Shown: positions 17,319 through 64,000 of the stretch, piece after piece
Position numbering within the stretch: position 1 is the stretch's first letter
Layout of the letters: each line of letters opens with the position of its first letter
Assembly (NCBI GenBank): GCA_963838835.1
Contig: CAWITA010000034.1
Coordinates: forward strand, 3,980-67,979
Length of the DNA: 64,000 nucleotides
From: an uncultured Acidimicrobiaceae bacterium
GTDB lineage: Bacteria > Actinomycetota > Acidimicrobiia > Acidimicrobiales > RAAP-2
Reading direction: 5' to 3'
Translations under genes and position numbers: made by a program
Notes under the pieces: model-generated
Databases searched by the model: none
Told to the model about the DNA's origin: nothing
The model's input: the letters and a program-made list of their open reading frames with translations, nothing else

Positions 17319-17382
17319 GGCGGAGGCGGTCTGTTCACGGGAGTGTGAGTTTTGGCGAAACGGCATATTGGCGAGGCTGCAC
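17319..17382 (+). promoter_or_regulatory. Conserved 64-nt element upstream of pilin-like gene A2 (paralog of 6499-6562)
   Basis: 52/64 identity to 6499-6562 without gaps. The equivalent hairpin lies at 17332-17345 with G-U pairs. Confidence 0.45.
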
Positions 17383-17429
17383 GGTCGGGAACCGGCCAAC
17401 GCGGGTTGCGTCGCGCCTTCGCGCCTGTC

Positions 17430-18944
17430 ATGCGGCGTGCCCGCGTGGCACGCCCCGACCGTGCCACCAGGCCCCAGGCGGACGCGTCGAACGCGGGGTT
17501 CACACTCATCGAGCTGGTGATCGTGACGGCGATCATGCCAATGGTGATCGGTGCCCTCGCGGTGGGCATTCTCTCGGTTTTCAATCTGCAGTCGAGTGTG
17601 TCGAATCGCCTCACTGACTCCGCCGACGCGCAGGTGGTCTCGGTCAATTACCAGAACGACGTCGAAGGCGCGGCATACATCACCACAGCCAGTGCCCCGG
17701 TGAGCGTGCCGGGTTCTCCGGCGAACACGCCAGCGCCCTGCGGATCGGGCCACCAGATTCTGGGTCTGGAGCTCGGCAACGGGACTGTGATCTCGTACAC
17801 CGTGAGCCAAGCCTCGAGCGGAACCGCTTACGACCTCTATCGGAACGTCTGCAGTGGCGGAAACGCCCCCAGCTCGACCGTCGTTTCGCGTGACAGCCCT
17901 GCCTCGATGCTCAACCCGGCCACTCCGCCGGTGACGGTCACGTGCACCAACCCGGCGACGTCGACGACCTGCAACCTTGTGGCACCGAGCAATGCGCCCG
18001 CCTACTCGCTGGGCTGGCAACCGACACTCGGGGTCACCGGGGTCACCTTCAAGACAACGGAAAAGCAGAGCAACTACAGCTACCAACTGGTTGCTGTGCC
18101 GACAGCAGCAGCAAGCTCTACGCAGCTGGCTCAAGTCTCGAGCTCGTCGACAGGATGTGGCTTTGCCCTGCCTTCCACCGGTACGTACGCGGGCACCCTG
18201 TGTTTCGTGAACTTCGCACCGTGGAACACCCAGACAGCCGCGAAGAACATCACGTGTAACGCGGCAGGCGCTGGGTTCTCGACGCCGATAGCCATGTCGG
18301 CCGCCCTCGCCAACACTCCCTTCACCCTCGACTTCTGCGTCAGCGTGAGCGCCACCACCAGCGGAGGACAGGCCATCACCGGTCAAACGTCGGCAGGCTC
18401 AGCTTGCGGAGTCGCCGCCAGGAACGGCTATGACGACATCACCGCGGTCCCGCTGCCAACGTATACATGTCCTCCCGGTAGTGAGGCGTTCCTGGGCAAC
18501 AACGGCTTCTATACGGGTGTGCCCGGCGATCCGGCGCTCTACACGGTGGACCAGGGTTCAACCGCGACCGTTGCCATCACGAACATCCAGTTGTTGAGCT
18601 CGAACGGTGTTGCCACGGGCTGGCAGCTGGCAACGGGTGACGCCGAGTCGACTGACGCGGGTGAATCGATCACGTGGACGTCCAACCAGAACCTAAACCT
18701 CATTCCAAATAGCCCGACGTCGCCGGTGGGCAACGCGTGCATGAGCACCGGATCGTACGCCCCCCCGAGCTACAACACGAACTACCTGACCGGAATCGGC
18801 ACCAAGACGGTCGAATGCTCGGCCACCGCGAGCTTCGACAAAACGGGCATGGCCATGCTTGCGGCCAGTACACCTTCGTCGCTCACGGTCACCATGGTCG
18901 GCGGGGGGCTTCAGGCCATGTTCATGGGAGTTCTGCTGCCATGA
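17430..18944 (+). CDS. Prepilin-type protein A2 (504 aa), intact paralog of A1
   Basis: ATG 17430 gives a 23-aa basic leader MRRARVARPDRATRPQADASNAG|FTLIELVIVTAIMPMVIGALAV with Glu5. The body is collinear with A1, sharing CPPGSEAFLGNNGFYTGV.GDPALYT, TGDAESTD.GESITW and a hydrophobic C-terminus GGLQAMFMGVLLP. Confidence 0.85.
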   Translation: MRRARVARPDRATRPQADASNAGFTLIELVIVTAIMPMVIGALAVGILSVFNLQSSVSNRLTDSADAQVVSVNYQNDVEGAAYITTASAPVSVPGSPANTPAPCGSGHQILGLELGNGTVISYTVSQASSGTAYDLYRNVCSGGNAPSSTVVSRDSPASMLNPATPPVTVTCTNPATSTTCNLVAPSNAPAYSLGWQPTLGVTGVTFKTTEKQSNYSYQLVAVPTAAASSTQLAQVSSSSTGCGFALPSTGTYAGTLCFVNFAPWNTQTAAKNITCNAAGAGFSTPIAMSAALANTPFTLDFCVSVSATTSGGQAITGQTSAGSACGVAARNGYDDITAVPLPTYTCPPGSEAFLGNNGFYTGVPGDPALYTVDQGSTATVAITNIQLLSSNGVATGWQLATGDAESTDAGESITWTSNQNLNLIPNSPTSPVGNACMSTGSYAPPSYNTNYLTGIGTKTVECSATASFDKTGMAMLAASTPSSLTVTMVGGGLQAMFMGVLLP

Positions 18945-21900
18945 GGCGCCGGCGAGCTGACGTTGATCGTTTGACCGGGCCGCCCCAGAACGAGGACAGG
19001 CGCCGCTCGGAGGCAGGCGACACCCTGGTCGAGATCCTGATCGCCCTCGCGGTGATCGGCATCGCGGCGACGGCTCTCCTCCTCGCCTTTGCCACGTCCA
19101 TCTCGGGCTCGGGAGAGCACCGCAACCTGGCGACCTTCGACACCATGCTGAGGACGGCGTCCGCGGAGGCCTCCTCACTCATTCAGCAGCAGTCACTCGC
19201 GGACTTCACCAGCTGTTCGGGGGCGTACCTGGTGAACCAGCAGGGCATCCCTCTCCCGAACGCCGCAGCCCCCGCGGCCAACCCCTACTCCGCCAGCATC
19301 ACCGGTGTGCAGTACTGGAATTCCGCCGCCAACCCGCCCGCTTTCACCACATTGCCCTGGACTCCCACCACCACGTGCCCGCCCGGAGTGACCGGAGGAG
19401 GTCCCCAGCTACTCACGGTGACGGTCTCGTTCCACGGCGGCAGCGGTAACACGAGCTCCTCCCTGACGACCGCGGTCGACAACCCCATTCCTCCGCCGCC
19501 CGCATCGAGTTGCGTCGGCGGCGCCACCCAATTGGTTTGGGTGTCGCAACCCGGCAACGGAAGTGCCGGATCGGCGCTCTACCCAGCACCGACATTGGTG
19601 CTCGAAAACTCGACCGGCTGCATCGAGCAGACCGATGCCTCCAGCGTCACCCTCAGCGTCGCGTCGGGTCCGGGCACGCTGACGAACTGCGTGCCCAATC
19701 TGCTCTACGGCGAGACTACGTTCCAGGATTGCACGCTCGGCACCCCCGGGACCTACACGCTGGGCGCAACCGATGCCACCGATGGCATCACGAAGCCCGT
19801 ATTGAGCAACTCCTTCGTCATTTCCCAGGGTGCTCCCGCCAAACTGGTCTTCTCCACGCAACCCGGAAACGGGACCGGTGGGTCTCCGCTCAGTACGCAG
19901 CCCGTCGTGTCCATCGAGGACGCGAACGGCAACCTCGTTCCGGGCGACAGCAGCATGGTCACGCTGGCGATCGGGACGAACCCGGGTGGCGGGACTCTCT
20001 CTGGATGCACCGGTACTTCGAACGGGAATGGCATCGTCTCCTTCGCCGGGTGCAAGATCGACAAAATTGGGACCGGGTACACCCTGACCGCGACCGACGC
20101 CGCGGACAACCTGACGACAGCGTCGGCCCCGAGTAATCCGTTCAACATCACGCCCGGCCCGGCGTACCAGCTCGCATTCACGACGTCGCCAGGGACAAGC
20201 GTGGCTCAGGACCCGTTCGGGACCCAGCCCGCCGTCACCCTGCTGGATGCGGGGGGCAACGTCGCCACTGGAAGCACCGATGCCGTCAAACTGGCAATCG
20301 GCAACAACCCAGGCGCGGGCACTCTCTCCGGTTGCTCAGAGACGACGAGCGCCGGAGTGGCCAACTTCAGCGGTTGCTCCATCAATAATCCTGGAACCGG
20401 CTACACGCTCGTAGCGACCGACACGACCAACCCTGCGGTGCTGTCCTCAACGAGCGGCGCGTTCAATGTCGTGGCACAGGCGCTGACCTCGTTCCAGGTC
20501 TCTAACCCGGGAACCCAGACGGCCGGGCACCAGTTCAGCGTGACGATCACGGCCGAAGACCAGGCTGGGTTCAAGTTCACCGGCTACACGGGCGCCCAGA
20601 CGCTCACATTCACCGGCCCGTTGAGCTCACCCAATCCTGTGACCGCCCCCGTCTACCCCTCTGGTGGCACGGTCACCTTCTCGGGTGGCACGGGTACGGC
20701 ATTGGTCACCCTCTACAACGCCTCGAACACGACCAACCTGACGGTCGCCCAGGGTGGAGCGACCGGCAGCACGGGCAACTTCATCGTGCACCCGGCCGGC
20801 GCCTCGAGCTTCACCGTGACCGGTTACCCCAGCCCGACCACGGCCGGGGCGTCCCACAACGTGACGGTCACCGCCTATGACACCTATGGCAACGTGGCCA
20901 CCGCCTACGCCGGCACCGTCCACTTCACGAGCAGCGACGCCCAGGCCACGCTGCCGGCCAACGCCACCCTCACCAACGGGACCGGCACCTTCTCGGCCAC
21001 GCTCAAGACGGCGGGGACCCAGTCGATCACGGCCACCGACACGGTGACGAGCTCCATCACCGGCAGTCAAAGCGGCATCACGGTGCACCCGGCCGGTGCC
21101 TCGAGCTTCACCGTCGCCGGCTTCACCAGCCCGACCACGGCCGGCGCGTCCCACAACGTGACGGTCACCGCCTATGACACCTATGGCAACGTGGCCACCG
21201 CCTACGCCGGCACCGTCCACTTCACCAGCAGCGACGCCCAGGCCACGCTGCCGGCCAACGCCACTCTCACCAACGGGACCGGGACCTTCTCGGCCACGCT
21301 CAAGACGGCGGGGACCCAGTCGATCACCGCCACCGACACGGTGACGAGCACGATCAACGGTTCGCAGTCCGGCATCACGGTGAACCCGGCCGGCGCGAGC
21401 AAGCTGGGCTTCGTCCAGCAGCCCACCACGACGCAGGCCGGAGGTGTCATCACCCCGTCGGTGACCGTCCAGGTCCAAGACACCTATGGCAACGCGGTGG
21501 CCGACTCGGGGGCGACGGTGACCATGAGCGTCAACACCGGACCCGGGTCCTTCACCGGTGGTTCGACGACGAGTGCCACGACGAGCGCAGCCGGGCTGGC
21601 CACGTTCAACAACCTGGTCCTCGACACCTCGGGCAGCTACACGCTCCAGGCGGCCTCGAGCCCCCTCACCTCGGTCACCTCGAACTCCGTGACGGTGAAC
21701 CCGGCCCCGGCGACCCACTTCACCGTGACCGGTTACCCCAGCCCGACCACGGCCGGCGCGTCCCACAACGTCACGGTCACCGCCTATGACACCTATGGCA
21801 ACGTGGCCACCGCCTACGCCGGCACCGTCCACTTCACCAGCAGCGACGCCCAGGCCACGCTGCCGGCCAACGCCACCCTCACCAACGGGACCGGCACCTT

Positions 21901-24900
21901 CTCGGCCACGCTCAAGACGGCGGGGACCCAGTCGATCACGCGCCACCGACACGGTGACGAGCACGATCAACGGTTCGCAGTCGCGGCATCACGGTGAACC
22001 CGGCCGGCGCGAGCAAGCTGGGCTTCGTCCAGCAGCCCACCACGACGCAGGCCGGAGGTGTCATCACCCCGTCGGTGACCGTCCAGGTCCAAGACACCTA
22101 CGGCAACGCGGTGGCCGACTCGGGGGCGACGGTGACCATGAGCGTCAACACCGGACCCGGGTCCTTCACCGGTGGTTCGACGACGAGTGCCACGACGAGC
22201 GCAGCCGGGCTGGCCACGTTCAACAACCTGGTCCTCGACACCTCGGGCAGCTACACGCTCCAGGCGGCCTCGAGCCCCCTGTTCGGCACGTCGGGCAGCT
22301 TCACCGTGAACCCGGCCCCGGCGACCCACTTCACCGTGACCGGTTACCCCAGCCCGACCACGGCCGGGGCGTCCCACAACGTCACGGTCACCGCCTATGA
22401 CACCTATGGCAACGTGGCCACCGCCTACAGCCGGCACCGTCCACTTCACGAGCAGCGACGCCCAGGCCACGCTGCCGGCCAACGCCACCCTCACCAACGG
22501 GACCGGCACCTTCTCGGCCACGCTCAAGACGGCGGGGACCCAGTCGATCACCGCCACCGACACGGTGACGAGCACGATCAACGGCATCGCAGCGGGCATC
22601 ACGGTGAACCCGGCCGGCGCCTCGAGCTTCACCGTCGCCGGTTACCCCAGCCCGACCACGGCCGGAGGGGCCCACAACTTCACGGTCACCGCCTATGACG
22701 CCTACGGCAACGTGGCCACCGGCTACGCCGGCACCGTCCACTTCACCAGCAGCGACGCCCAGGCCACGCTGCCGGCCAACGCCACCCTCACCAACGGGAC
22801 CGGCACCTTCTCGGCCACGCTCAAGACGGTCGGGACCCAGTCGATCACGGCCACCGACACGGTGACGAGCACCATCACCGGCGCCCAGTCCATCTCGGTC
22901 CTCTCGTCGACGGCGACCCACTTGACCGTCAGCGGCTTCACCAGCCCGACCACGGCCGGCGCGCCCCACAACGTCACCGTGACCGCCTACGACGCCTACG
23001 GCAACGTGGCCACCGGCTACACGGGCACCGTCCACTTCACGAGCAGCGACGCCCAGGCCACCTTGCCCGCCAACTACACCTTCACCAGCGGCGTCAGCGC
23101 GGACAACGGGGTCCACACCTTCACCAACGGGGCCACGCTCGCGACGGCGGGGACCCAGTCGATCACCGCCACCGACACGGTGACCAGCTCCATCACCGGC
23201 GTCCAAAGCGGCATCACCGTGCACCCGGCCGGCGCCTCGAGCTTCACCGTGACCGGTTACCCCAGCCCGACCACGGCCGGGGCGTCCCACAACGTGACGG
23301 TCACCGCCTATGACACCTACGGCAACGTGGCCACCGCCTACAGCCGGCACCGTCCACTTCACGAGCAGCGACGCCCAGGCCACGCTGCCGGCCAACGCCA
23401 CCCTCACCAACGGGACCGGCACCTTCTCGGCCACGCTCAAGACGGCGGGGACCCAGTCGATCACCGCCACCGACACGGTGACGAGCTCCATCACCGGTGT
23501 CGCAGTCCGGCATCACGGTGAACCCGGCCGGCGCCTCGAGCTTCAACGTCACCGGCTTCACCAGCCCGACCACGGCCGGCGGGGCCCACAACTTCACGGT
23601 CACCGCCGACGACGCCTACGGCAACGTGGCCACCGGCTACGCCGGCACCGTCCACTTCACGAGCAGCGACGCCCAGGCCACGCTGCCGGCCAACGCCACC
23701 CTCACCAACGGGACCGGCACCTTCTCGGCCACGCTCGAGACGGCGGGGACCCAGTCGATCACGGCCACCGACACGGTGACGAGCTCCATCACCGGCAGTC
23801 AAACCGGCATCACGGTGAACCCGTCGACGGCGACCCACTTGACCGTCGGCGGCTTACCCCAACCCGACCACGGCCGGGGCGTCCCACAACGTGACGGTGA
23901 CCGCCGACGACGCCTACGGCAACGTGGCCACCGGCTACGCCGGCACCGTCCACTTCACGAGCAGCGACGCCCAGGCCACGCTGCCGGCCAACGCCACCCT
24001 CACCAATGGGACCGGCACCTTCTCGGCCACGCTCAAGACGGCGGGGACCCAGTCGATCACGGCCACCGACACGGTGACGAGCTCCATCACCGGCAGTCAA
24101 AGCGGCATCACGGTGCACCCGGCCGGCGCCTCGAGCTTCACCGTCGCCGGCTTCACCAGCCCGACCACGGCCGGCGCGTCCCACAACGTGACGGTCACCG
24201 CCTATGACACCTATGGCAACGTGGCCACCGCCTACGCCGGCACCGTCCACTTCACGAGCAGCGACGCCCAGGCCACGCTGCCGGCCAACGCCACTCTCAC
24301 CAACGGGACCGGCACCTTCTCGGCCACGCTCAAGACGGCGGGGACCCAGTCGATCACCGCCACCGACACGGTGACGAGCACGATCAACGGTTCGCAGTCC
24401 GGCATCACGGTGAACCCGGCCGGCGCGAGCAAGCTGGGCTTCGTCCAGCAGCCCACCACGACGCAGGCCGGAGGTGTCATCACCCCGTCGGTGACCGTCC
24501 AGGTCCAAGACACCTATGGCAACGCGGTGGCCGACTCGGGGGCGACGGTGACCATGAGCGTCAACACCGGACCCGGGTCCTTCACCGGTGGTTCGACGAC
24601 GAGTGCCACGACGAGCGCAGCCGGGCTGGCCACGTTCAACAACCTGGTCCTCGACACCTCGGGCAGCTACACGCTCCAGGCGGCCTCGAGCCCCCTCACC
24701 TCGGTCACCTCGAACTCCGTGACGGTGAACCCGGCCCCGGCGACCCACTTCACCGTGACCGGTTACCCCAGCCCGACCACGGCCGGGGCGTCCCACAACG
24801 TCACGGTCACCGCCTATGACACCTATGGCAACGTGGCCACCGCCTACGCCGGCACCGTCCACTTCACCAGCAGCGACGCCCAGGCCACGCTGCCGGCCAA

Positions 24901-57881: not shown

Positions 57882-59237
57882 GTGACACTGTCCACGGGCC
57901 GGCGAGACGGCAGTGCCAACGGAGAGCGGGCGATCATTCAGGTGTCGCACCTCTTCAAGACGTTCACGTCGCCGGACGGGAGCCCGCTCCCGGTGCTCGA
58001 GGACATCACGCTGAACCTCGACGAGGGCGAGATCGTGGCACTGCTGGGCCGTTCGGGCTCGGGGAAGAGCACGCTGCTCCGCTGTATCGCCGGTCTCATC
58101 GAGCCCACCGCGGGGGAGATCTCCTACCGGGGCGAGATCCTCAATGGTGCCTGCCACGGGGTCTCGATGGTGTTCCAGAGTTTCGCGCTGCTGCCGTGGC
58201 TCACGGTGCGCCAGAACGTGGAGCTGGGACTCGAAGCGAGGGGGGTGCCCCCCGCGGAGCGGCTCGACCGGGCCGAGCGCGCCATCGACACCATCGGCCT
58301 CGACGGGTTCGAATCGGCCTACCCCAAGGAATTGTCCGGTGGGATGCGCCAACGGGTCGGTTTCGCGCGGGCGCTCGTGGTCGAGCCCGACGCGCTGCTC
58401 ATGGACGAGCCCTTCTCGGCGCTCGATGTCCTGACGGCGCAGAACCTGCGGGCCGAGCTTCTCCGGTTGTGGACGCAGTCGAACTTCCCGACCAAGGCGA
58501 TGCTGATCGTGACGCACAACATTGAGGAGGCGGTGATCCTGGCCGACCGGATCTTCGTCCTCGGCGCCAACCCCGGCCGCATCCGGGCGGAGATCCCGGT
58601 GAAATTCCCTCAGCCCCGGGATCGACACGACCCGGCATTCGAGGCGCTCGTCGACGAGATCTACGGCTTCATGACCGGTGGGGACTCCAGGGCGCCCTCG
58701 CACGTGTGGACGGTGGCCTCGCCGGGGGAGGGATCCCCGGTCGACACGCCCCTCCCGGCGGCGACGGTCGGAGGCATGGCGGGCCTGCTCGAGATCCTGG
58801 CGGCCCGAGGCGGCCGGGAGGATCTCCCAGAGCTGGCCAGCGACCTGACCTTCGAGGTGGACGATCTGCTTCCGCTGGTCGACGCGGCCCAGCTGCTCGG
58901 CCTGGCCGGGGTGGAGGACGCCGACCTTCAGATCAGCGACGACGGCCAGGTGTTCGTGGCGGCCGACATCCACGAGTCGAAGCAGATCTTTGCGCGGCGG
59001 GCGCGCGAGCGCGCGCCCCTGGTGCGCGCCATCTACAACGCGCTGATGACCACCAAGGACGGCACCTTGGGCGAGAGCTTCTTCCTCGACCTGCTCCGCC
59101 GTGGCTTTACCGAGGACGAGGCGCGCGAGCAGCTCCGTATCGCGGTCGACTGGGGCCGCTACGGCGAGCTGTTCGACCTCGATGCCCACACGGGCCAGCT
59201 CACCTTGGACCACTCCCTCAATACTGGAGCGGCCTGA
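57882..59237 (+). CDS. ABC transporter ATP-binding protein (NitT/TauT family) with about 190-aa C-terminal extension
   Basis: Walker A GRSGSGKST, Q-loop MVFQSFALLPW, signature LSGGMRQRV, Walker B LLMDEPFSALD, H-loop VTHNIEEA. The C-terminal part resembles the AAA-associated domain seen in this family. Confidence 0.9.
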   Translation: MTLSTGRRDGSANGERAIIQVSHLFKTFTSPDGSPLPVLEDITLNLDEGEIVALLGRSGSGKSTLLRCIAGLIEPTAGEISYRGEILNGACHGVSMVFQSFALLPWLTVRQNVELGLEARGVPPAERLDRAERAIDTIGLDGFESAYPKELSGGMRQRVGFARALVVEPDALLMDEPFSALDVLTAQNLRAELLRLWTQSNFPTKAMLIVTHNIEEAVILADRIFVLGANPGRIRAEIPVKFPQPRDRHDPAFEALVDEIYGFMTGGDSRAPSHVWTVASPGEGSPVDTPLPAATVGGMAGLLEILAARGGREDLPELASDLTFEVDDLLPLVDAAQLLGLAGVEDADLQISDDGQVFVAADIHESKQIFARRARERAPLVRAIYNALMTTKDGTLGESFFLDLLRRGFTEDEAREQLRIAVDWGRYGELFDLDAHTGQLTLDHSLNTGAA

Positions 59238-59335
59238 ACGGCGGTTCGTTTGTTGCCGCCGCACGCTCGCCCGCCCGGTTGCAGAGGGCTAGCGTGGGAC
59301 GCCCTCTTACGAGGGGACTTCATGAGAGATCGCAC

Positions 59336-59409
59336 GGGCGCTTAGCTCAGTTGGTTAGAGCAGCTGGCTTACAACCAGCAGGCCGGGGGTTCGAGTCCCT
59401 CAGCGCCCA
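59336..59409 (+). tRNA. tRNA-Val (anticodon TAC)
   Basis: Cloverleaf read by hand: acceptor GGGCGCT/AGCGCCC, D-arm GCTC..GAGC, anticodon stem GCTGG/CCAGC with loop CTTACAA, T-arm GGGGG-TTCGAGT-CCCTC, discriminator A. CCA is not encoded. Confidence 0.9.
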
Positions 59410-59912
59410 CTATTCCAACTAGACACCAAGGAAGGCAGGGAGGACAGAAGCGGCCGGAAGCCGGACAAGGGAGGGAGGGCGACCCCACAGGGAGCCCGAC
59501 CGACCGGCTTGGGGAAGGGCGGGCGTGATTGCCGGGATGCAAGCCGGACACGCGTCAGCGATAGAGCTGCGCCACTAGGGCTGACGACAAGCGGAGCACC
59601 CTGGGGATGCGAGCGCTCCGCAGTCGGCCCGAGAGCCGTGCACGGAGGCGGGCGACCCCACGTGGAGCCCGAACGACCAGGTCCGTGCGGGACGTCGATC
59701 CGATCAGGATCTCGGCCTCGGCGATCTGCAACCAGACCAGCGTCTGTGCCCTCCGACACACAACGGGTGTCTCCATCGACACGGTCACCGGAGTCGGTCC
59801 GCACAGAGGCTGGTCTGGTTTGCGGCTCAGGCGGCGGATCTTGCGTCCAGGTGCGCCAGTGCCCGCCGCCGTGGCGACAGGCACTGGCACGGTCAACTTC
59901 GTCCGGACTTAC

Positions 59913-59975
59913 TTAGTAGCTGTGGCTCCGAGTAAGGCGGCGGATCTTGCGGATCTTGCGGATGCGGTTCTTCAT
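59913..59975 (-). CDS. Candidate 20-codon Arg/Lys-rich mini-ORF (MKNRIRKIRKIRRLTRSHSY)
   Basis: ATG is preceded by AAGAGAGGAACGACC (GAGAGGA core, 7-nt spacer), an unusually good SD for this window. The stop is TAA. An inverted repeat CCAGTGCC/GGCACTGG (59853-59886) lies downstream. It could instead be the tail of a longer ORF (possible MTEIDSF start near 60273). Confidence 0.3.
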   Translation of the reverse strand: MKNRIRKIRKIRRLTRSHSY

Positions 59976-60395
59976 GGTCGTTCCTCTCTTTTGCTCACAC
60001 CGACCGTTTGTCGGTGTAGTTGCCAGCATGAGCGGATCCGACGGCTCTGTCTGTCCCGTCCGACACACAACGGGTGTCCCCGTCGACACGGTCGCGGTGG
60101 AGTCGTTCGGCACGGACGAATGGTCTTGTTTTTGGATTGCGGTGTGCACCGCACGGTTGTCCCCTCGGGCGTACGCCTCCAAGAGCAACGTGGCCGCACG
60201 ATGGACCCCAAACCGGAATCGACGACCCTGCACAGTCTCCAGACTGCTGGAGTCTTGGAAGCTGTCGATCTCGGTCATCGGGCCGAACCACACGGCGAAC
60301 CGGCCAGTTCCGAGAATCGCCAGCGCCGCTGACAACCTCCTGAGCAACAATCCGCTGGACCTGCAAAAATCCCGTCGACGACCAAGGACCAACCG

Positions 60396-60515
60396 ATGGC
60401 CGACGACGGGTTCATTTCTTACAGCCACGCAGCCGATGTAAGGCTCGCTCCCGCCCTCGAACGGGGCCTGCAGACAATCCAGACCGTCCCCGCGTCGGAG
60501 GGTGTCCGTGTCTGA
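60396..60515 (+). pseudogene. Vestigial TIR-domain N-terminus (39 codons), immediately upstream of and overlapping the intact TIR gene
   Basis: It translates as MADDGFISYSHAADVRLAPALERGLQTIQTVPASEGVRV*. The FISYSH....LA.AL.RGLQ pattern is the first beta-strand/helix of bacterial TIR domains. It is truncated after about 25 residues of TIR-like sequence. Confidence 0.5.
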
Positions 60516-63373
60516 CGCCTTCATCAGCTATTCACATCGTGACCGGGATTTCGCGGTTCGCCTCCAACGGGCTCTCAAGGATTCCGGCAAAGCGATCTGG
60601 GTGGATGAGTCTGGCATCCCCTCGGGTGCCAGCTGGGCCGAGGACCTCAAGGGGGCAATCGAGGATGCCGACAGCTTTGTGTTTGTCATCAGCCCGAACT
60701 CGGTCGCATCCGAGGAGTGCAAGCGGGAACTCTCCTACGCAGCGCAACTCCACAAGCGGATCATTCCCCTCAACCTCAGTCCTACCCCATTAGACGATCT
60801 CCCTGAGACACTCAAGGCCGTCCAGTTCGTACCACCAAGGGGTTTGTTCGAAAATGACCCCGACCCCAAGTCCGAAAACACCTTCGAGAACTCGCTACCC
60901 CTCCTGATCACCACCATTGATACCGACTTAGACGCAACACGTGAGCACACTGAGTGGGCCAAGAAGGCGCTCGAGTGGGACAAGCACACGCGGGATCGCA
61001 GTTTCTTGCTGTCCGGCAGTGAGCTTGACGCGGCTGAGCAATGGCTTGTTCGGAGGACAGACAAAGGCCCCGAGCCGACGGACCTTCAAAAGTCGTACCT
61101 ACTGGCCAGCCGCCAAGGTGCCACTCGCCGTCAGCGTCGGTTACTGGCTGGGGTAAGTATCGCACTCGTGATAGCCCTCGTGCTCGGAGGGCTGGCACTT
61201 GTAGCGCGAAGTGAAGCCATCGCTCAGCGAAACAATGCCATCAAGCAATCACACCTCTCCCAGTCCGAAGACATGGCAGCCGAGGCTACGAATCTGCTCT
61301 CAACTGATGCTCCCCTCGGAATGCTTGTCAGTCTGCAAGCCTACAAACGCGCTCCCTACGCTTCAAGCTCGAAACGCACTCATCCAAGCCGCCGAACAAC
61401 CCTTAAACGCCACCCTGTCCGAGGGCAGCTCGGTCTTAAGCGTGGCCTTCAGCCCGAACGGCCAGACCCTCGCGGTCGGGGACTTAGGCGGTGACGTCGG
61501 GCTGTGGAGCACGGCCAGCGGGGAGAAGACGGCCACCCTGTCCGAGGGCAGCGAGGTCTTGGGCGTCGCCTTCAGCCCGAACGGCCAGACCCTCGCGGTC
61601 GGGGACTTACGCGGTGACGTCGGGCTGTGGAGCACCGCTAGCGAGAAGAGGACGGCGACCTTGTCCGAGGGCTTCGGAGTCTCTACCGTCGCGTTCAGCC
61701 CGAACGGCCAGACGCTCGCGGTCGGGGACTTACGAGGTGACGTCGGGCTGTGGAGCACGGCCAGCGGGGAGAAGACGGCCACCCTCTCTGAGCGCGGCCA
61801 GGTCTCAAGCGTCGCCTTCAGCCCGAACGGCCAGACCCTCGCGGTCGGGGACTACGGCGGTGACGTCGGGCTATGGAGCACGACCAGCGGGGAGAGGACT
61901 GCCACCCTGTCCGAGGGCAGCTCGGTCAATAGCGTCGCCTTCAGCCCGAACGGCCAGACCCTCGCGGTCGGGGACTTAGGCGGTGACGTCGGGCTGTGGA
62001 GCACGACCAGCGGGGAGAGGACGGCCACCCTGTCCGAGGGCAGCCCGGTCGGCAGCGTCGCCTTCAGCCCGAACGGCCAGACCCTCGCGGTCGGGGACCA
62101 CGGCGGTGAGGTCGCTCTGTGGAGCACGTCCAGCGGGGAGAGGACTGCCACCCTGCCCGAGGGCAGCGAGGTCGATAGTGTCGCCTTCAGCCCGGACGGC
62201 CAGACTCTCGCGGTCGGGGACTACGGCGGTGAGGTCGCTCTGTGGAGCACGGCCAACGGGGAGAAGACGGCCACGCTGTCCGAGGGTAGCGAGGTCTCAA
62301 GCGTCGCCTTCAGCCCGAACGGCCAGACCCTCGCGGTTGGGGACCAGGGCGGTGACGTCGGGCTGTGGAGCACGGCCAGCGGGGAGAAGACGGCCATCTT
62401 GTCCGAGGGTAGCTCGGTCGATAGTGTCGCATTCAGCCCGAACGGCCAGACCCTCGCGGTCGGGGACCAGGGCGGTGACGTCGGGCTGTGGAGCACGGTC
62501 AGCGGGGAGAGGACGGCCACGCTGTCCGAGGGCAGCGAGGTCTCAAGCGTCGCCTTCAGCCCGAACGGCCAGACCCTCGCAGTCGGGGACTTAGGCGGTC
62601 CCGTCGGGCTGTGGAGCATGGTCACCGGGAAGAATACGGCCAAGCTGTCCCAGGACGGCTCGGTCAATAGCGTCGCCTTCAGCCCGAACGGCCAGACCCT
62701 CGCGGTCGCGGACTTAGGCTTCGATAACGTCGGACCGCAGGGAGCGCAGGGAGACGAGGTTACTCTGTGGCGCACGGCCAGCGCGGAGAAGACGGCCAAC
62801 CTATCGGAGGGCAGCAAGGTCGATAGCGTCGCCTTCAGCCCGAACGGCGAGACGCTCGCGGTCGGGGACTACGGCGGTGACGTCGGGCTGTGGAGCACGG
62901 TCAGCGGGAAGAAAACGGCCACCCTGTCCGAGGGCAGCGAGGTCTATAGCGTCGCCTTCAGCCCGAACGGCCAGACCCTCGCGGTTGGGGACTTAGGCGG
63001 TGACGTCGGGCTGTGGAGCACGGTTAGCGGGAAGAAGACGACCACCCTGTTCGAGGGCAGCCCGGCCGGCAGTGTCGCCTTCAGCCCGAACGGCCAGACC
63101 CTCGCGGTCGGTGAATCCATTGGTGTCGTAGAGCTCCTTCGACAGGGCTTTTGGGACTGGAACTTCAATTCGTTCTTGCATCTTCTCTGCGGTGAGATGA
63201 GAAAGAACATGACACAGGCCCAATGGTTGGCAAACGTACCTAACCAGCCTTACCAGAAAACCTGCCCCGCCTACTCGGTGCCTCGGCCCGGTCGAAACCC
63301 GGCAGGACTTGAGCTGCATCAGGTCAAACCGCCTCGTCAGGGCGTACTTGGCTCCGGAGGCGCGGCGGGTTAG
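60502..63373 (+). CDS. TIR domain - single TM helix - 14x WD40 repeat protein (about 956 aa), frame broken near 61346-61352
   Basis: TIR: SDAFISYSHRDRDFAVRLQRAL...IWVDESGIPSGASW...ADSFVFVISPNSVASEECKRELSYA. TM: RRQRRLLAGVSIALVIALVLGGLALVARS. Then come 14 units of LSEGS.V.SVAFSPNGQTLAVGD.GGDVGLWST.SGEKTAT. Tracks 60502 and 61211 join as ...LQAYK[.]ALPTLQARNALIQAAEQPL with one base removed. Confidence 0.85.
61415..63120 (+). repeat. 14 tandem 123-bp WD40-blade repeats (one carries a 33-bp insertion), highly similar at nucleotide level
   Basis: Read directly. The GTCGCCTTCAGCCCGAACGGCCAGACCCTCGCGGTCGGGGAC core recurs every 123 bp. Antisense track ORFs are also repetitive. Confidence 0.9.
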
Positions 63374-63546
63374 CGGCGCTTGAGCGGCCTCAATCTCCTG
63401 ACCTACCGGTTTGACCCATCGCACGCGACCTTGAATCACCCCCGTTGACACGCAACAAGGCCAGCGCGACGCCATACACGGTTTCTGGAGGATCATGCCG
63501 CGTTCCTCGGGCGCGTTGGACAACAGACCAGCACAAAGAAGCGGCA

Positions 63547-64000
63547 ATGAAGTGGCTGACCAAACCCTCCGGTTTCTCCGCCTCTCGATCTCCAGGTCAG
63601 ATGCGGAAGGAAAGCACCCTCCGCCGACGCCGACCTCGCCTGGTCGTCGTCACGTTGCTCGCCGTGATGGGAGCTTCCTTGGCGCCCGAGCTGGTCCTCG
63701 GGCCCGGCGTCGGCGCTTCCGAGCGCCCGAGTACCACGCATCCAAGAGTCCACGTCTTTCCGAATTTCAATCCCAAGCTGCCACCGGCGACTTCGGGTTG
63801 CCACGGTGCAACAGCCTTGCCCGGGGGAGGTGAGAAGTTGCCGCTGACGATCAGTAGCGGGGAGGGGGGCAGGCTGCGGCGACGGTCAATGTGTGCGTGG
63901 ACGGAAACGGCCCATTCCCCTTCCTACTCGACTCTGGTGCTGGCCAGACGATCATCGATGCCGGGCTGACCCATCGGCTCCACCTGGCTACGATCGGCCG
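63547..64000 (+). CDS. Secreted retropepsin-like aspartic protease (partial, 3' end outside the window); frame changes at the G6 run 63864-63869
   Basis: ATG 63547 (MKWLTKP...), basic region plus TM/signal RRRRPRLVVVTLLAVMGASLA. After the G-run another frame reads QAAATVNVCVDGNGPFPFLLDSGAGQTIIDAGL, carrying the D-S/T-G-A active-site motif of clan AA proteases. Confidence 0.6.

What the first reader, a model, noticed from the sequence alone, without database searches (positions are those of the whole stretch)
60502..63373. TIR - transmembrane helix - 14-blade WD40: a Toll-like-receptor-style topology without an NTPase
Most bacterial TIR-WD40 proteins I know of are STAND/NLR-like, with a central NACHT or NB-ARC ATPase. 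Here the TIR (residues about 1-130) and a helical linker of about 80 aa are followed directly by one hydrophobic helix (LLAGVSIALVIALVLGGLALVA). That helix is flanked by RRQRR on the N side.

By the positive-inside rule, the TIR would be cytoplasmic and the two predicted 7-bladed propellers would be outside the membrane. This parallels actinobacterial kinases such as PknD, which have a cytoplasmic catalytic domain, a TM segment and an extracellular beta-propeller sensor.

The protein may therefore be a surface sensor, of phage or of cell-envelope ligands, that signals to an NADase-type TIR effector. This is speculative but testable.
Basis: inference. Interest (0 to 1): 0.7.

Follow-up and report, generated by a model that had tools for sequence, protein, structure and literature searches.

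The report
Membrane TIR receptor with WD40 sensor
This is a frame-shifted copy of a very common but unstudied bacterial protein that joins an inside-the-cell TIR immune enzyme, through one membrane helix, to a probably outward-facing 14-blade WD40 sensor, so the layout is real and Toll-like-receptor-like but neither rare nor intact here.

Summary
At 60502-63373 (+), two ORFs become one 956-aa protein once an extra T at 61357 is removed. The protein has a TIR domain, three linker helices, one hydrophobic helix (residues 214-235, preceded by RRQRR), juxtamembrane helices, 14 near-identical 41-aa WD40 blades and a C-terminal cap holding a Cys pair. No NTPase is present by Pfam, NCBIfam, PADLOC, Walker A motif or fold search. 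The TIR keeps the NADase active-site residues S9, D35, S70 and E76.

The layout is not rare. A linker-TM profile finds 2,287 clusters (50% identity) at E<=1e-30, and intact 900-1000-aa copies occur in at least seven bacterial phyla or groups. Relatives with an NTPase (TIR-nSTAND1-TM-WD40) carry the same TM-WD40 module, so the helix does not replace the NTPase.

An N-in/C-out topology is supported only indirectly: charge bias, AlphaFold, homologues carrying CHASE3, SH3b or FGE domains, and the conserved Cys pair.

In relatives the gene sits beside SLOG-SLATT pore genes and RyR-domain genes. This points to a Thoeris-like cADPR signalling role rather than simple NAD+ depletion. No such partner is visible in this window. 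The copy is broken, either by sequencing error or by very recent decay.

The parts
60502..60876 (+). TIR domain (residues 1-125). The catalytic Glu E76 is the codon at 60727-60729.
   Evidence: Pfam TIR_2 covers residues 7-110 at 83.9 bits. The AlphaFold model has a TIR fold, and the Foldseek PDB hits are all TIR domains. S9, D35, S70 and E76 are invariant in homologues and align with Cat1 active-site residues.
60883..61140 (+). Conserved helical linker (residues 128-213) ending in the basic stretch RRQRR. It carries the motifs TDLD..HT....A.EW, LL.G..L..AE.WL and P.PT.L...Y..ASR.
   Evidence: Helices 128-140, 143-161 and 172-184 in the model. T141, D142, H149, T150, A156, W159, L169 and R204 are invariant. 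The unit recurs after each TIR in tandem multi-TIR proteins. It has no Pfam, NCBIfam or PADLOC match.
61141..61206 (+). Single transmembrane helix LLAGVSIALVIALVLGGLALVA (residues 214-235).
   Evidence: Kyte-Doolittle mean 2.63. Hessa sum -2.8 kcal/mol, against at least +9.0 elsewhere in the protein. The position is conserved in homologues, with a positive-inside bias. It forms part of one continuous 75-residue helix (194-268) in the AlphaFold model.
61207..61414 (+). Juxtamembrane helical module (residues 236-304). It contains the frameshift site and is shared with nSTAND1-TM-WD40 proteins.
   Evidence: BLASTP of window residues 130-327 against P0094 residues 503-692 gives 44% identity, E 1e-38. 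P0124 matches similarly. Helices 234-268, 270-283 and 287-297.
61357..61357 (+). One extra T that shifts the frame and splits the gene into a 330-aa and a 720-aa ORF.
   Evidence: DNA alignment with L001-L005. Homologues P0002-P0005 read through this site.
61415..63172 (+). 14 WD40 blades (residues 305-890) of the 'recently amplified' WRAP type. They are predicted to form two 7-bladed propellers, with a few hypervariable positions per blade.
   Evidence: PF00400 matches 13 stretches. There are 14 repeats. The DNA repeat unit is 123 bp at 87% identity. The top Foldseek hit is 2YMU at 39% identity, followed by tandem-propeller proteins. At repeat columns 6, 8, 24, 27, 34, 37 and 38, synonymous:non-synonymous differences are 16:307, against 250:201 elsewhere.
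63143..63373 (+). C-terminal helical cap with a conserved Cys pair (C896, C921; motif LLCGEMRKNMTQAQW...PYQKTCP), a disordered tail and the stop codon.
   Evidence: C896 is invariant and C921 is conserved in at least 90% of 22 full-length homologues. Exactly two Cys lie after the TM in 77 of 132 related proteins, and the count is even in 101 and odd in 31. Helices 881-911 in the model.
60396..60512 (+). 38-codon remnant of the 5' end of a second TIR gene (MADDGFISYSHAADVRLAPALERGLQ...), overlapping the start of the main gene.
   Evidence: Read directly from the sequence. The best BLASTP matches are the N-termini of the TIR-TM-WD40 proteins P0175 and P0185, at 61% identity over 23 aa.
59336..59410 (+). 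tRNA-Val(TAC) bounding the region. Housekeeping ABC-transporter genes lie upstream. A repeat-rich stretch of about 1.1 kb with no recognisable gene lies between the tRNA and the TIR gene, and G+C drops.
   Evidence: ARAGORN and Rfam. G+C is 0.58-0.63 at 60000-61500, against 0.65-0.74 upstream. Pfam on the neighbouring ORFs. Repeats.

Best explanation
The locus encodes a frame-shifted member of a very large family of single-pass (type II, N-in/C-out) bacterial membrane proteins. The family has never been studied experimentally.

Layout:
- The N-terminal TIR domain and its helical extension lie in the cytoplasm.
- One long helix crosses the membrane.
- Two 7-bladed WD40 propellers, built from 14 recently amplified blades, face the cell envelope or exterior.

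Proposed mechanism (inferred, not shown):
1. A ligand outside the membrane binds the hypervariable top face of the propellers. The ligand could be a phage particle protein, a foreign cell-surface component or an envelope-damage product.
2. Binding clusters the receptors.
3. The rigid TM and juxtamembrane helix brings the cytoplasmic TIR domains into the head-to-tail contacts that form TIR NADase active sites.
4. The TIR cleaves NAD+ and releases an ADP-ribose-derived signal, probably cADPR-type.
5. In many relatives that signal would open an adjacent SLOG-SLATT membrane pore. Adjacent RyR-domain proteins would bind or hydrolyse the signal.

In effect this would be a Thoeris-like system whose TIR sensor looks outward.

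In this window the gene is interrupted by one extra T between the membrane helix and the propellers. As written, it gives a TIR-TM stub and a propeller ORF with no start or export signal. This is either an assembly error or a very recent inactivation. No partner gene is visible, and the window ends 627 bp after the stop codon.
For: Shown by tools:
- Domain content and absence of an NTPase.
- Active-site residues S9, D35, S70 and E76 are conserved and align with the Cat1 NADase site, where D33A, S68A and E74A abolished toxicity in vivo. The Cat1 active site forms only between stacked TIR domains.
- One strongly hydrophobic helix, conserved in position, with a positive-inside bias, modelled as a continuous 75-residue helix.
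- Homologues on the same scaffold carry CHASE3 plus a second TM and a basic tail, SH3_3, TPR, or WG-repeat plus FGE-sulfatase.
- A conserved Cys pair is the only Cys in about 700 residues after the TM.
- Intact 900-1000-aa orthologues occur in Actinomycetota, Chloroflexota, Cyanobacteria, Gammaproteobacteria, Nitrospira, Myxococcales and Bacteroidota.
- Family size: 2,287 clusters at E<=1e-30.
- Propeller type and tandem 7+7 arrangement (PMC9218822; 10.1101/723619).
- Non-synonymous variation is concentrated at 7 of 41 repeat positions.

Neighbours in relatives:
- LSDAT_prok(SLOG)+SLATT_1 genes lie immediately upstream on the same strand in L020, L024 and L041.
- SLATT genes lie beside the gene in L026, L040, L014, L036 and L007.
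- RyR or TrkA_N-RyR genes are directly adjacent or nearby in L001, L003, L004, L008, L014, L022 and L036.

Literature:
- RyR-domain proteins bind or cleave 2'/3'cADPR (PMC13232231).
- TIR+SLATT is type VII Thoeris and signals with cADPR (10.64898/2025.12.03.692087).
- Cytoplasmic kinase-TM-periplasmic WD40/TPR/FGE arrays are predicted in Planctomycetota (PMC11032199).
Against: - No experimental topology exists, and no dedicated predictor (DeepTMHMM, Phobius) was available.
- The C-side flank still carries 3 K/R in 15 residues.
- WRAP-type propellers were first described in proteins taken to be cytoplasmic STAND sensors (PMC9218822).
- Export and folding of a 14-blade WD40 array outside an actinobacterial cell has never been demonstrated.
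- In the full-length AlphaFold model the helix has low confidence (pLDDT 45-54).
- The Cys-pair statistic counts related sequences, not independent events.
- A conserved Glu is necessary but not sufficient for NADase activity. TLR1 has it too.
- In this window no SLATT, SLOG or RyR gene exists within 64 kb.
- The gene is frame-shifted.
- A second frameshift at a G6 run lies 0.5 kb downstream, so the region may be decaying or poorly assembled.
- The neighbour associations come from about 14 of about 40 loci, not from a systematic enrichment test.
Confidence: 0.55

Rival explanations
1. This copy is a dead remnant. The frameshift is real, the gene no longer makes a full-length receptor, and the region next to tRNA-Val is a decaying, rearranged island. 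This concerns the copy, not the family.
For: - There is an extra T at 61357 relative to five homologues.
- A truncated second TIR start lies 106 bp upstream.
- A second frameshift sits in the next gene downstream.
- G+C drops and a repeat-rich 1.1 kb with no recognisable gene lies beside a tRNA.
- No partner genes are present.
- Disrupted propellers are reported as common in this class (PMC9218822).
Against: - The 2,016 nt downstream of the shift stay fully open, with 14 intact conserved blades and an intact C-terminal cap. Any inactivation is therefore very recent.
- The downstream frameshift is at a G6 homopolymer, a typical sequencing-error site.
- A related gene in a metagenome assembly with Flye-style contig names, P0046 in L050, is also split into three pieces.
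Confidence: 0.4
2. The family is an outward-facing receptor, but for self/non-self or kin recognition between cells of filamentous or aggregating bacteria rather than for phage defence. The TIR would then trigger growth arrest or death on contact with non-kin.
For: - Highly repetitive WD40 arrays with a few hypervariable positions resemble those of fungal allorecognition NLRs (own knowledge).
- The phyletic spread favours filamentous or multicellular groups: Actinomycetota, Chloroflexota and filamentous Cyanobacteria. Similar conflict systems are reported to be enriched in multicellular prokaryotes (PMC7159879).
- An external sensor would naturally meet neighbouring cells.
Against: - The neighbours SLATT, SLOG and RyR belong to systems shown experimentally to act against phages (10.64898/2025.12.03.692087; PMC13232231).
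- The family also occurs in unicellular symbionts such as Thiodiazotropha.
- No polymorphic partner ligand gene was seen.
Confidence: 0.15
3. The hydrophobic helix does not span the membrane, or only anchors the protein peripherally. The propellers would then be cytoplasmic, as in classical STAND sensors, and the protein an NTPase-less intracellular sensor.
For: - WD40 and TPR arrays of this type are typical of cytoplasmic STAND proteins (PMC9218822; PMC7159879).
- The AlphaFold full-length model gives low confidence for the helix.
- Some relatives with similar propellers show no hydrophobic segment.
Against: - A 21-23-residue uncharged segment with Kyte-Doolittle mean 2.6 and negative insertion free energy.
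- Hydrophobicity, not sequence, is conserved at the same position in nearly all homologues, with a basic N-flank.
- One homologue has a CHASE3 loop between two such helices followed by a basic tail.
- With a single span and an N-terminal domain of more than 200 residues without a signal peptide, C-in is topologically impossible.
Confidence: 0.1
4. The TIR acts as a scaffold that recruits other TIR proteins, as animal TLRs recruit adaptors, or as a stand-alone NAD+-depleting effector, with no diffusible signal.
For: - The closest solved-structure matches include receptor and adaptor TIRs: Hydra TRR-2, TLR1, TLR15 and MyD88.
- In L051 three Pkinase-TIR genes lie next to the homologue.
- In L052 a TIR-TPR gene lies nearby.
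- This window shows no effector gene.
Against: - Four NADase active-site residues are fully conserved.
- Signal-sensing (SLOG) and signal-degrading or -binding (RyR) neighbours recur in relatives from several phyla.
Confidence: 0.15

Closest known systems
TIR-nSTAND1-TM-WD40 and Trypsin-nSTAND1-TM-WD40 conflict-system proteins (nSTAND1 = Pfam PF20703; clade named in PMC8195603)
   Same: They share the same linker end, TM helix, juxtamembrane module, WRAP-type WD40 array and C-terminal Cys cap. Window residues 130-327 match P0094 residues 503-692 at 44% identity (E 1e-38), and overall identity is 52-62% over the C-terminal 70-85% of the protein.
   Different: Those proteins have a P-loop NTPase of about 400 residues between the effector and the TM. 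The window protein has none. Their TIR is also a different, distant subtype: only 38% identity over 76 aa.
WRAP propeller of Nostoc punctiforme Npun_R6612 (PDB 2YMU)
   Same: It is the best structural match, at 39% identity over about 590 columns. It also has 14 near-identical 41-42-aa WD40 blades, which fold as two 7-bladed propellers. Rapid turnover and frameshift disruption are reported for this class (PMC9218822; 10.1101/723619).
   Different: Npun_R6612 carries a STAND ATPase, and its TIR sits on a separate, co-transcribed protein. The window's blades are more diverged (87% nucleotide identity, with synonymous changes), so they were amplified less recently.
Thoeris systems, especially type VII (TIR ThsB + SLATT effector ThsH, cADPR signal; 10.64898/2025.12.03.692087)
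   Same: The TIR has intact NADase residues. In relatives a SLATT or SLOG-SLATT gene lies directly next to the TIR gene on the same strand.
   Different: Described ThsB proteins are soluble. In this family the TIR is tethered to a membrane helix and a 700-aa repeat array. No effector gene is visible in this window. No member of this family has been tested.
Animal Toll-like receptors
   Same: Both are single-pass membrane proteins with a repeat-built ectodomain and a cytoplasmic TIR. The top sequence and fold matches include TLR1, TLR6, TLR10, TLR15 and Hydra TRR-2 TIR domains.
   Different: The orientation is reversed: type II with an N-terminal TIR, against type I with a C-terminal TIR. The ectodomain is WD40, not LRR. 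The TIR probably acts as an enzyme rather than an adaptor platform. The resemblance is one of layout, not shared ancestry of the whole protein.
Bacterial Ser/Thr kinases with a TM helix and an external propeller or repeat array (PknD-type; Planctomycetota kinase-TM-WD40/TPR/FGE-sulfatase, PMC11032199)
   Same: Both have a cytoplasmic catalytic domain, one TM helix and a predicted periplasmic WD40, TPR or FGE-sulfatase array. These are the same three alternative ectodomains found on the TIR scaffold.
   Different: The output domain is a kinase rather than a TIR. The external location is likewise only predicted for the WD40 and TPR cases.
Filament- or oligomer-activated TIR NADases (Cat1, AbTir, SARM1)
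   Same: The active-site residues are conserved (S9, D35, S70, E76 against Cat1 S7, D33, S68, E74). Activation by TIR-TIR stacking is the established principle.
   Different: Those enzymes are driven by cytoplasmic ligands: cA4 for Cat1 and NMN/NAD for SARM1. Here the presumed driver is a ligand on the other side of the membrane.

Membership tests
TIR domain (Pfam TIR_2, PF13676), enzymatic NADase subclass | Profile match above the curated cut-off, and a TIR fold | tested here: met
   83.9 bits against a cut-off of 28, residues 7-110. AlphaFold model with pLDDT 83. All 48 Foldseek PDB hits at E<=1e-3 are TIR domains.
TIR domain (Pfam TIR_2, PF13676), enzymatic NADase subclass | Catalytic glutamate and the other NAD-site residues | tested here: met
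   E76, S70, D35 and S9 align with Cat1 E74, S68, D33 and S7 (Cat1 site residues and the D33A, S68A and E74A substitutions in PMC12162218). They are invariant in 18 and in 22 homologues.
TIR domain (Pfam TIR_2, PF13676), enzymatic NADase subclass | NAD+ cleavage activity and the identity of the product | not testable with these tools
   Requires an enzyme assay and LC-MS.
STAND / NLR-like NTPases (nSTAND1, NACHT, NB-ARC) | A P-loop NTPase domain between the effector and the repeats | tested here: not met
   No NTPase family at E<=1 in Pfam on residues 1-305. None in NCBIfam or PADLOC. No Walker A motif. Only about 85 residues of three helices lie between the TIR and the TM. Foldseek finds only TIR domains.
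WD40 / WRAP recently amplified propellers | Tandem blades of about 40 aa matching WD40, with high internal identity, folding as 7-bladed propellers | tested here: met
   PF00400 E 3.7e-70 over 13 stretches. There are 14 units of 41 aa. The 123-bp DNA unit has 87% identity. The propeller region of the model has pLDDT above 90. The top Foldseek hit is 2YMU, followed by tandem 7+7 propeller proteins. The 7+7 split itself was not read from coordinates.
Single-pass type II (N-in/C-out) membrane protein | One hydrophobic segment long and hydrophobic enough to span the bilayer | tested here: met
   Kyte-Doolittle mean 2.63. Hessa sum -2.8 kcal/mol over 21 residues. No other candidate segment (at least +9.0 elsewhere).
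Single-pass type II (N-in/C-out) membrane protein | Orientation: N-terminus in the cytoplasm, C-terminal domain outside | tested here: inconclusive
   Indirect support only:
- Positive-inside bias, with the N side above the C side in 43 of 48 homologues.
- Homologues carrying CHASE3 plus a second TM, SH3_3 or FGE-sulfatase.
- A conserved Cys pair.

No topology predictor or experiment was available.
Thoeris-type TIR signalling system | TIR gene in an operon with an effector gene that carries a signal-binding domain | tested here: not met
   In the window no SLATT, SLOG, RyR, SIR2 or Macro gene lies near the gene or anywhere in the 64 kb. The window ends 627 bp downstream, so a downstream partner cannot be excluded. 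The feature is met in relatives L020, L024, L041, L026 and L040.
Thoeris-type TIR signalling system | Phage-dependent signal production and protection against phage | not testable with these tools
   Requires experiments.
Toll-like receptors | Type I topology with an N-terminal LRR ectodomain and a C-terminal TIR | tested here: not met
   The TIR is N-terminal, the ectodomain is WD40, and there is no LRR match. This is an analogy of layout only.

The most novel reading that the evidence does not exclude
The TIR-linker-TM-repeat family may be a widespread class of outward-facing bacterial immune receptors. This includes the versions that carry an nSTAND1 NTPase. A hypervariable propeller, or a TPR or FGE array, outside the membrane would detect phage particles or foreign surfaces before or at genome entry. 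The event would be passed across the membrane by receptor clustering and turned by the TIR into a cADPR-type messenger. That messenger would be read by SLOG-SLATT pores and tuned by host RyR-domain proteins. If so, this would be a bacterial counterpart of both Toll-like-receptor topology and the animal link between cADPR and the ryanodine receptor.
Probability: 0.3. Interest if true: 0.85.

Novelty: new variant of a known kind. Interest (0 to 1): 0.55.

Why it matters
Nearly all characterised bacterial anti-phage sensors work inside the cell. This family has thousands of members whose TIR enzyme is tied by one membrane helix to a large, fast-evolving repeat array that is predicted to lie outside. 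That would mean bacteria also watch their surface and signal inward with NAD-derived messengers.

The recurring neighbours give concrete two- and three-gene systems to test: SLOG-SLATT pores, and RyR-domain proteins, whose fold was recently shown to bind or cleave cADPR isomers.

The work also shows that many 'NLR-like' nSTAND1-WD40 proteins carry the same membrane helix, which changes how that whole class should be drawn.

For this particular window the practical message is more modest. It holds one broken, partner-less copy of a common family.

Tried and rejected
- Hidden NTPase: rejected. Pfam at E<=1, NCBIfam, PADLOC, the Walker A pattern, AlphaFold plus Foldseek, and the short linker length all argue against it.
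- Programmed frameshift: rejected. There is no slippery or stop-codon context at 'CCC T ACG', and all homologues read through in one frame.
- One 14-bladed ring rather than two 7-bladed propellers: not favoured. The best fold matches are tandem 7+7 proteins (2YMU, Aip1, Utp21, Pwp2). Model coordinates could not be inspected.
- Exact look-ups of the window's two ORF products in the contig index found nothing. The cluster look-up of P0001 gave no accession. The source assembly and its sequencing technology therefore remain unknown.
- The first related-loci run, with a diverse alignment, failed for lack of conserved stretches. It was repeated with six closer sequences.
- Rfam found only the tRNA in 59000-64000.
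- PADLOC has no model for the RyR or TrkA_N-RyR neighbours or for the three conserved unknown genes.
- Full-text searches for 'TIR-WD40', 'TM-WD40', 'TIR-TM' and related terms found no description of this architecture. The key 2014 JMB paper on WRAP and TIR networks is not held.
- The search for homologous proteins returned no hit longer than about 1.7 times the query in either search. The many truncated or frame-shifted hits may therefore be a selection effect and were not counted as evidence of decay.
- The three conserved unknown genes next to L001, L003, L005 and L008 (556, 394 and 256 aa; one PrsW-like with zinc ribbons) were not pursued. Their linkage may only reflect synteny among close relatives.

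Full report
**1. What is in the sequence**

The stretch 60502-63373 (+) holds two overlapping ORFs in different frames: 60502..61494 (330 aa) and 61211..63373 (720 aa). The first ORF ends in nonsense after '...SLQAYKRAP'. The second becomes meaningful from 'TLQARNALIQAAEQPL' onward.

DNA alignment with the five closest homologues shows a single extra T at 61357 ('gctccc[t]acg'). Removing one base gives a 956-aa protein. Its junction is colinear with intact homologues at 76-81% identity. An identical 328-aa product is on record from one 89.7-kb contig, so the shift is in the deposited assembly.

There is no slippery or stop context at the site, and every homologue uses one frame. A programmed frameshift is therefore unlikely.

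**2. Anatomy**

- **TIR.** Pfam places TIR_2 at residues 7-110 (83.9 bits; cut-off 28) and WD40 in 13 stretches.
- **N-terminal model.** An AlphaFold model of residues 1-305 (pLDDT 83) shows four features:
  - a TIR fold;
  - three linker helices (128-140, 143-161, 172-184);
  - one continuous helix from 194 to 268;
  - two further helices.
- **Long helix.** The 194-268 helix runs through the basic stretch RRQRR, the hydrophobic segment 214-235 and the juxtamembrane region.
- **Hydrophobic segment.** The Kyte-Doolittle mean is 2.63. The summed Hessa free energy over 21 residues is -2.8 kcal/mol, and no other segment in the protein is below +9.0.
- **Repeats.** There are exactly 14 repeats of 41 aa, one of them with an 11-aa insert. 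They are encoded by a 123-bp tandem DNA repeat at 87% identity.
- **Propellers.** The full-length model (pLDDT 84; propeller region above 90) best matches PDB 2YMU, the 14-blade WRAP array of Nostoc Npun_R6612, at 39% identity. Other tandem-propeller proteins follow. In 2YMU the 14 blades form two 7-bladed propellers (PMC9218822; 10.1101/723619).
- **C-terminal cap.** After the last blade comes a helical cap with two Cys, C896 and C921. C896 is invariant and C921 is conserved in at least 90% of 22 full-length homologues.

**3. No NTPase**

- The N-terminal 305 residues match only TIR families in Pfam, even at E<=1.
- NCBIfam and PADLOC give only TIR and propeller hits.
- There is no Walker A motif.
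- All 48 Foldseek PDB matches of the N-terminal model at E<=1e-3 are TIR domains.
- About 85 residues of three helices is too little room for a P-loop domain.

**4. The TIR looks catalytic**

HMMER aligns residues 5-93 without gaps to Cat1 residues 3-95. In Cat1, S7, H8, N9, N10, D33, S68 and E74 line the NADase site. The D33A, S68A and E74A substitutions abolish toxicity in vivo, and the site forms only between stacked TIR domains (PMC12162218).

The equivalent window residues S9, D35, S70 and E76 are invariant in two independent family alignments. A conserved Glu is necessary but not sufficient for activity: TLR1 has it as well.

**5. How common is it, and what are the relatives?**

- **Family size.** A profile of the linker-TM-juxtamembrane region was searched against 1.84 billion cluster representatives.
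  - It finds 20,199 proteins at E<=1e-3, 9,366 at E<=1e-10 and 2,287 at E<=1e-30.
  - Of the top 146, 70 are 850-1100 aa with one TM at residues 150-320. Of these 70, 61 have at least 3 WD blades by a narrow model.
- **Phyletic spread.** A scan of one genome per species gave 49 loci.
  - The nearest are in Acidimicrobiaceae MAGs. L001 and L002, at 85% and 84% identity, are intact ORFs of 679 and 909 aa on one 2.8-Mb contig.
  - Intact 900-1000-aa versions occur in other Actinomycetota, Chloroflexota, Cyanobacteria, Gammaproteobacteria, Nitrospira, Myxococcales and Bacteroidota.
- **Alternative C-terminal modules.** The same TIR-linker-TM scaffold carries TPR arrays, or three TIRs plus WG repeats plus FGE-sulfatase. 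It also carries SH3_3, or CHASE3 followed by a second TM and a basic tail.
- **NTPase-containing relatives.** The closest WD40 arrays belong to 1,100-1,350-aa proteins with nSTAND1 (PF20703).
  - About a third of the 120 best hits are TIR(5)-P-loop(~190)-TM(~585-605)-WD40. Others are Trypsin_2-nSTAND1-TM-WD40.
  - Window residues 130-327 align to P0094 residues 503-692 at 44% identity (E 1e-38), and the juxtamembrane stretch is nearly identical.

The linker-end/TM/juxtamembrane/WD40 module is therefore a shared cassette. The window protein is the NTPase-less version. Its TIR is of a different subtype from that of the nSTAND1 proteins, so this is module shuffling rather than a recent deletion.

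**6. Topology**

Evidence for N-in/C-out:

- The N-terminal domain of about 210 residues has no signal peptide.
- K+R in the 15-residue flanks average 4.7 (N side) against 2.3 (C side). The N side exceeds the C side in 43 of 48 homologues.
- There is only one span.
- One homologue has a CHASE3 loop between two helices followed by a basic tail. Others carry SH3b or FGE-sulfatase.
- The roughly 700 residues after the helix contain exactly two Cys in 77 of 132 relatives. The count is even in 101 and odd in 31. The N-terminal parts show no such bias, at 47 even and 85 odd.
- The same trio of WD40, TPR and FGE arrays is predicted to be periplasmic in single-pass Planctomycetota kinases (PMC11032199).

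All of this is indirect. No topology predictor or experiment was available, and the sequences counted are related to one another.

**7. The sensor surface**

Among 12 regular blades, variation is concentrated at repeat positions 6, 8, 24, 27, 34, 37 and 38. At these positions, synonymous:non-synonymous differences between blades are 16:307. At the other 34 positions they are 250:201.

This is the pattern expected for a diversifying binding face on an otherwise homogenised repeat. Assigning these positions to the top face of the propeller rests on general WD40 knowledge and was not measured on the model.

**8. Neighbours in relatives**

*RyR-domain genes (PF02026)*, either small or fused to TrkA_N, lie next to or near the homologue at eight loci:

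| Locus | Position relative to the TIR gene |
|---|---|
| L001/L052 | divergent, about 0.4 kb upstream; a second copy 5 kb downstream |
| L003 | two copies on the same strand; the nearer ends 18 bp before the TIR gene |
| L004 | 1.4 kb downstream, convergent |
| L005 | fragments |
| L008 | 47 bp downstream, same strand |
| L014 | 50 bp downstream, same strand |
| L022 | convergent, adjacent |
| L036/L051 | divergent, adjacent |

*SLATT genes:*

- Immediately upstream on the same strand in L040 (E 1e-26) and in L026.
- As LSDAT_prok(SLOG)+SLATT_1 fusions immediately upstream in L020, L024 and L041 (E down to 2e-48).
- Downstream in L007/L053, L040 and L014.
- 6.7 kb upstream in L036/L051, beside three Pkinase-TIR genes.

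*What the literature says about these domains:*

- SLOG binds 3'cADPR in type I Thoeris.
- TIR+SLATT is type VII Thoeris and signals with cADPR (10.64898/2025.12.03.692087).
- RyR-domain proteins of phages bind or cleave 2'/3'cADPR (PMC13232231).

At least 14 of about 40 loci show one or both neighbour types. This is a pattern, not a statistical enrichment test.

**9. This window**

Upstream lie an ABC permease and ATPase, then tRNA-Val(TAC) at 59336-59410. Next comes about 1.1 kb with no recognisable gene, containing direct and inverted repeats. A 38-codon remnant of another TIR gene start follows at 60396-60512. G+C falls to 0.58-0.63 across 60000-61500.

Downstream, a membrane-anchored aspartyl-protease gene also seems frame-shifted, at a G6 run (63864-63869).

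No SLATT, SLOG or RyR gene is found anywhere in the 64 kb, but the window ends 627 bp after the stop codon.

The 2 kb after the shift is fully open and conserved. The lesion is therefore either an assembly error or very recent. Frameshift-disrupted propeller genes are a reported trait of this class (PMC9218822).

**10. Verdict**

The Toll-like-receptor-style reading is reasonable and supported by indirect evidence.

The architecture is, however, a common, automatically annotated and experimentally untouched family, not an oddity. Its NTPase-bearing cousins have the same membrane helix. The TIR probably signals to separate effectors. This copy is broken and isolated.

The interest lies with the family: a possible outward-facing, TIR-based sensing system linked to SLATT pores and RyR-domain proteins.

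Noticed in passing
window 60396-60512 (+): A 38-codon ORF, MADDGFISYSHAADVRLAPALERGLQ...*, is the 5' end of a second TIR gene of a different subtype. Its best matches are the N-termini of P0175 and P0185. It overlaps the GTG start of the main gene, which suggests a past rearrangement or deletion.
   Followed up: partly
window 59411-60400: About 1.1 kb between tRNA-Val and the TIR genes has no recognisable gene. It contains a 45-nt direct repeat (59742 and 60049, 91% identity), a 32-nt repeat (59474 and 59647), a 17-nt repeat, and a 28-nt inverted repeat (59730-59757 with 59793-59820). There is no Rfam match. Function is unknown; these could be island or att remnants.
   Followed up: partly
window 63445-64000 (+): The downstream gene has an N-terminal basic and hydrophobic anchor in one frame. 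An Asp_protease_2 (retropepsin-like) domain starts at about 63885 in another frame. The two frames would join at a G6 homopolymer (63864-63869). This second apparent frameshift, within 2.6 kb of the first, bears on whether the assembly or the region is degraded.
   Followed up: partly
L001/L052, L003, L004, L008, L014, L022, L036/L051 (relatives): RyR-domain genes (PF02026), either small or fused to a TrkA_N NAD-binding domain, recur directly beside TIR-TM-WD40 genes in Actinomycetota. A 2026 preprint shows that phage RyR-domain proteins bind or cleave cADPR isomers. I found no description of host RyR genes next to a TIR.
   Followed up: partly
L020 5987-7885, L024 1-1770, L041 6005-7888, L026 6744-7907, L040 7058-7957: LSDAT_prok (the SLOG domain of TRPM channels) fused to SLATT_1, or SLATT alone, lies immediately upstream of the TIR-TM-WD40 gene on the same strand. 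This is seen in Gammaproteobacteria, a cyanobacterium and an actinomycete. They look like two-gene operons.
   Followed up: partly
P0017, P0020, P0211-P0230 (database proteins): Proteins of 1,400-2,300 aa carry 5-7 tandem copies of the TIR plus helical-linker unit. Some end in a TM helix and repeats. The linker therefore travels with the TIR as one unit.
   Followed up: no
L001 and L002 (contig CAVSBE010000008.1, about 20 kb apart, opposite strands); L052 1014-5702: The closest genome has two paralogues, with 8 and 14 blades. Between and around them lie two transposase genes (DDE_Tnp_1, IS110), a TIR-TPR gene and a WD40 fragment. This is a dynamic cluster of TIR sensors.
   Followed up: no
L001 11274-14889; L003, L005, L008 (relatives): Three conserved genes without annotation accompany the TIR and RyR genes in Acidimicrobiia. 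They encode 556 aa (N-terminal anchor), 394 aa (zinc ribbons plus a weak PrsW-protease match) and 256 aa (TM). Their linkage may be functional or may only reflect synteny.
   Followed up: partly
window 17352-21997 (+): Two large adjacent ORFs carry prokaryotic N-terminal methylation (pilin-like) motifs. They also match adhesin and Ig-like domains (CshA_NR2, Big_1, Invasin_D3). This was seen while checking the window for other frameshifts.
   Followed up: no
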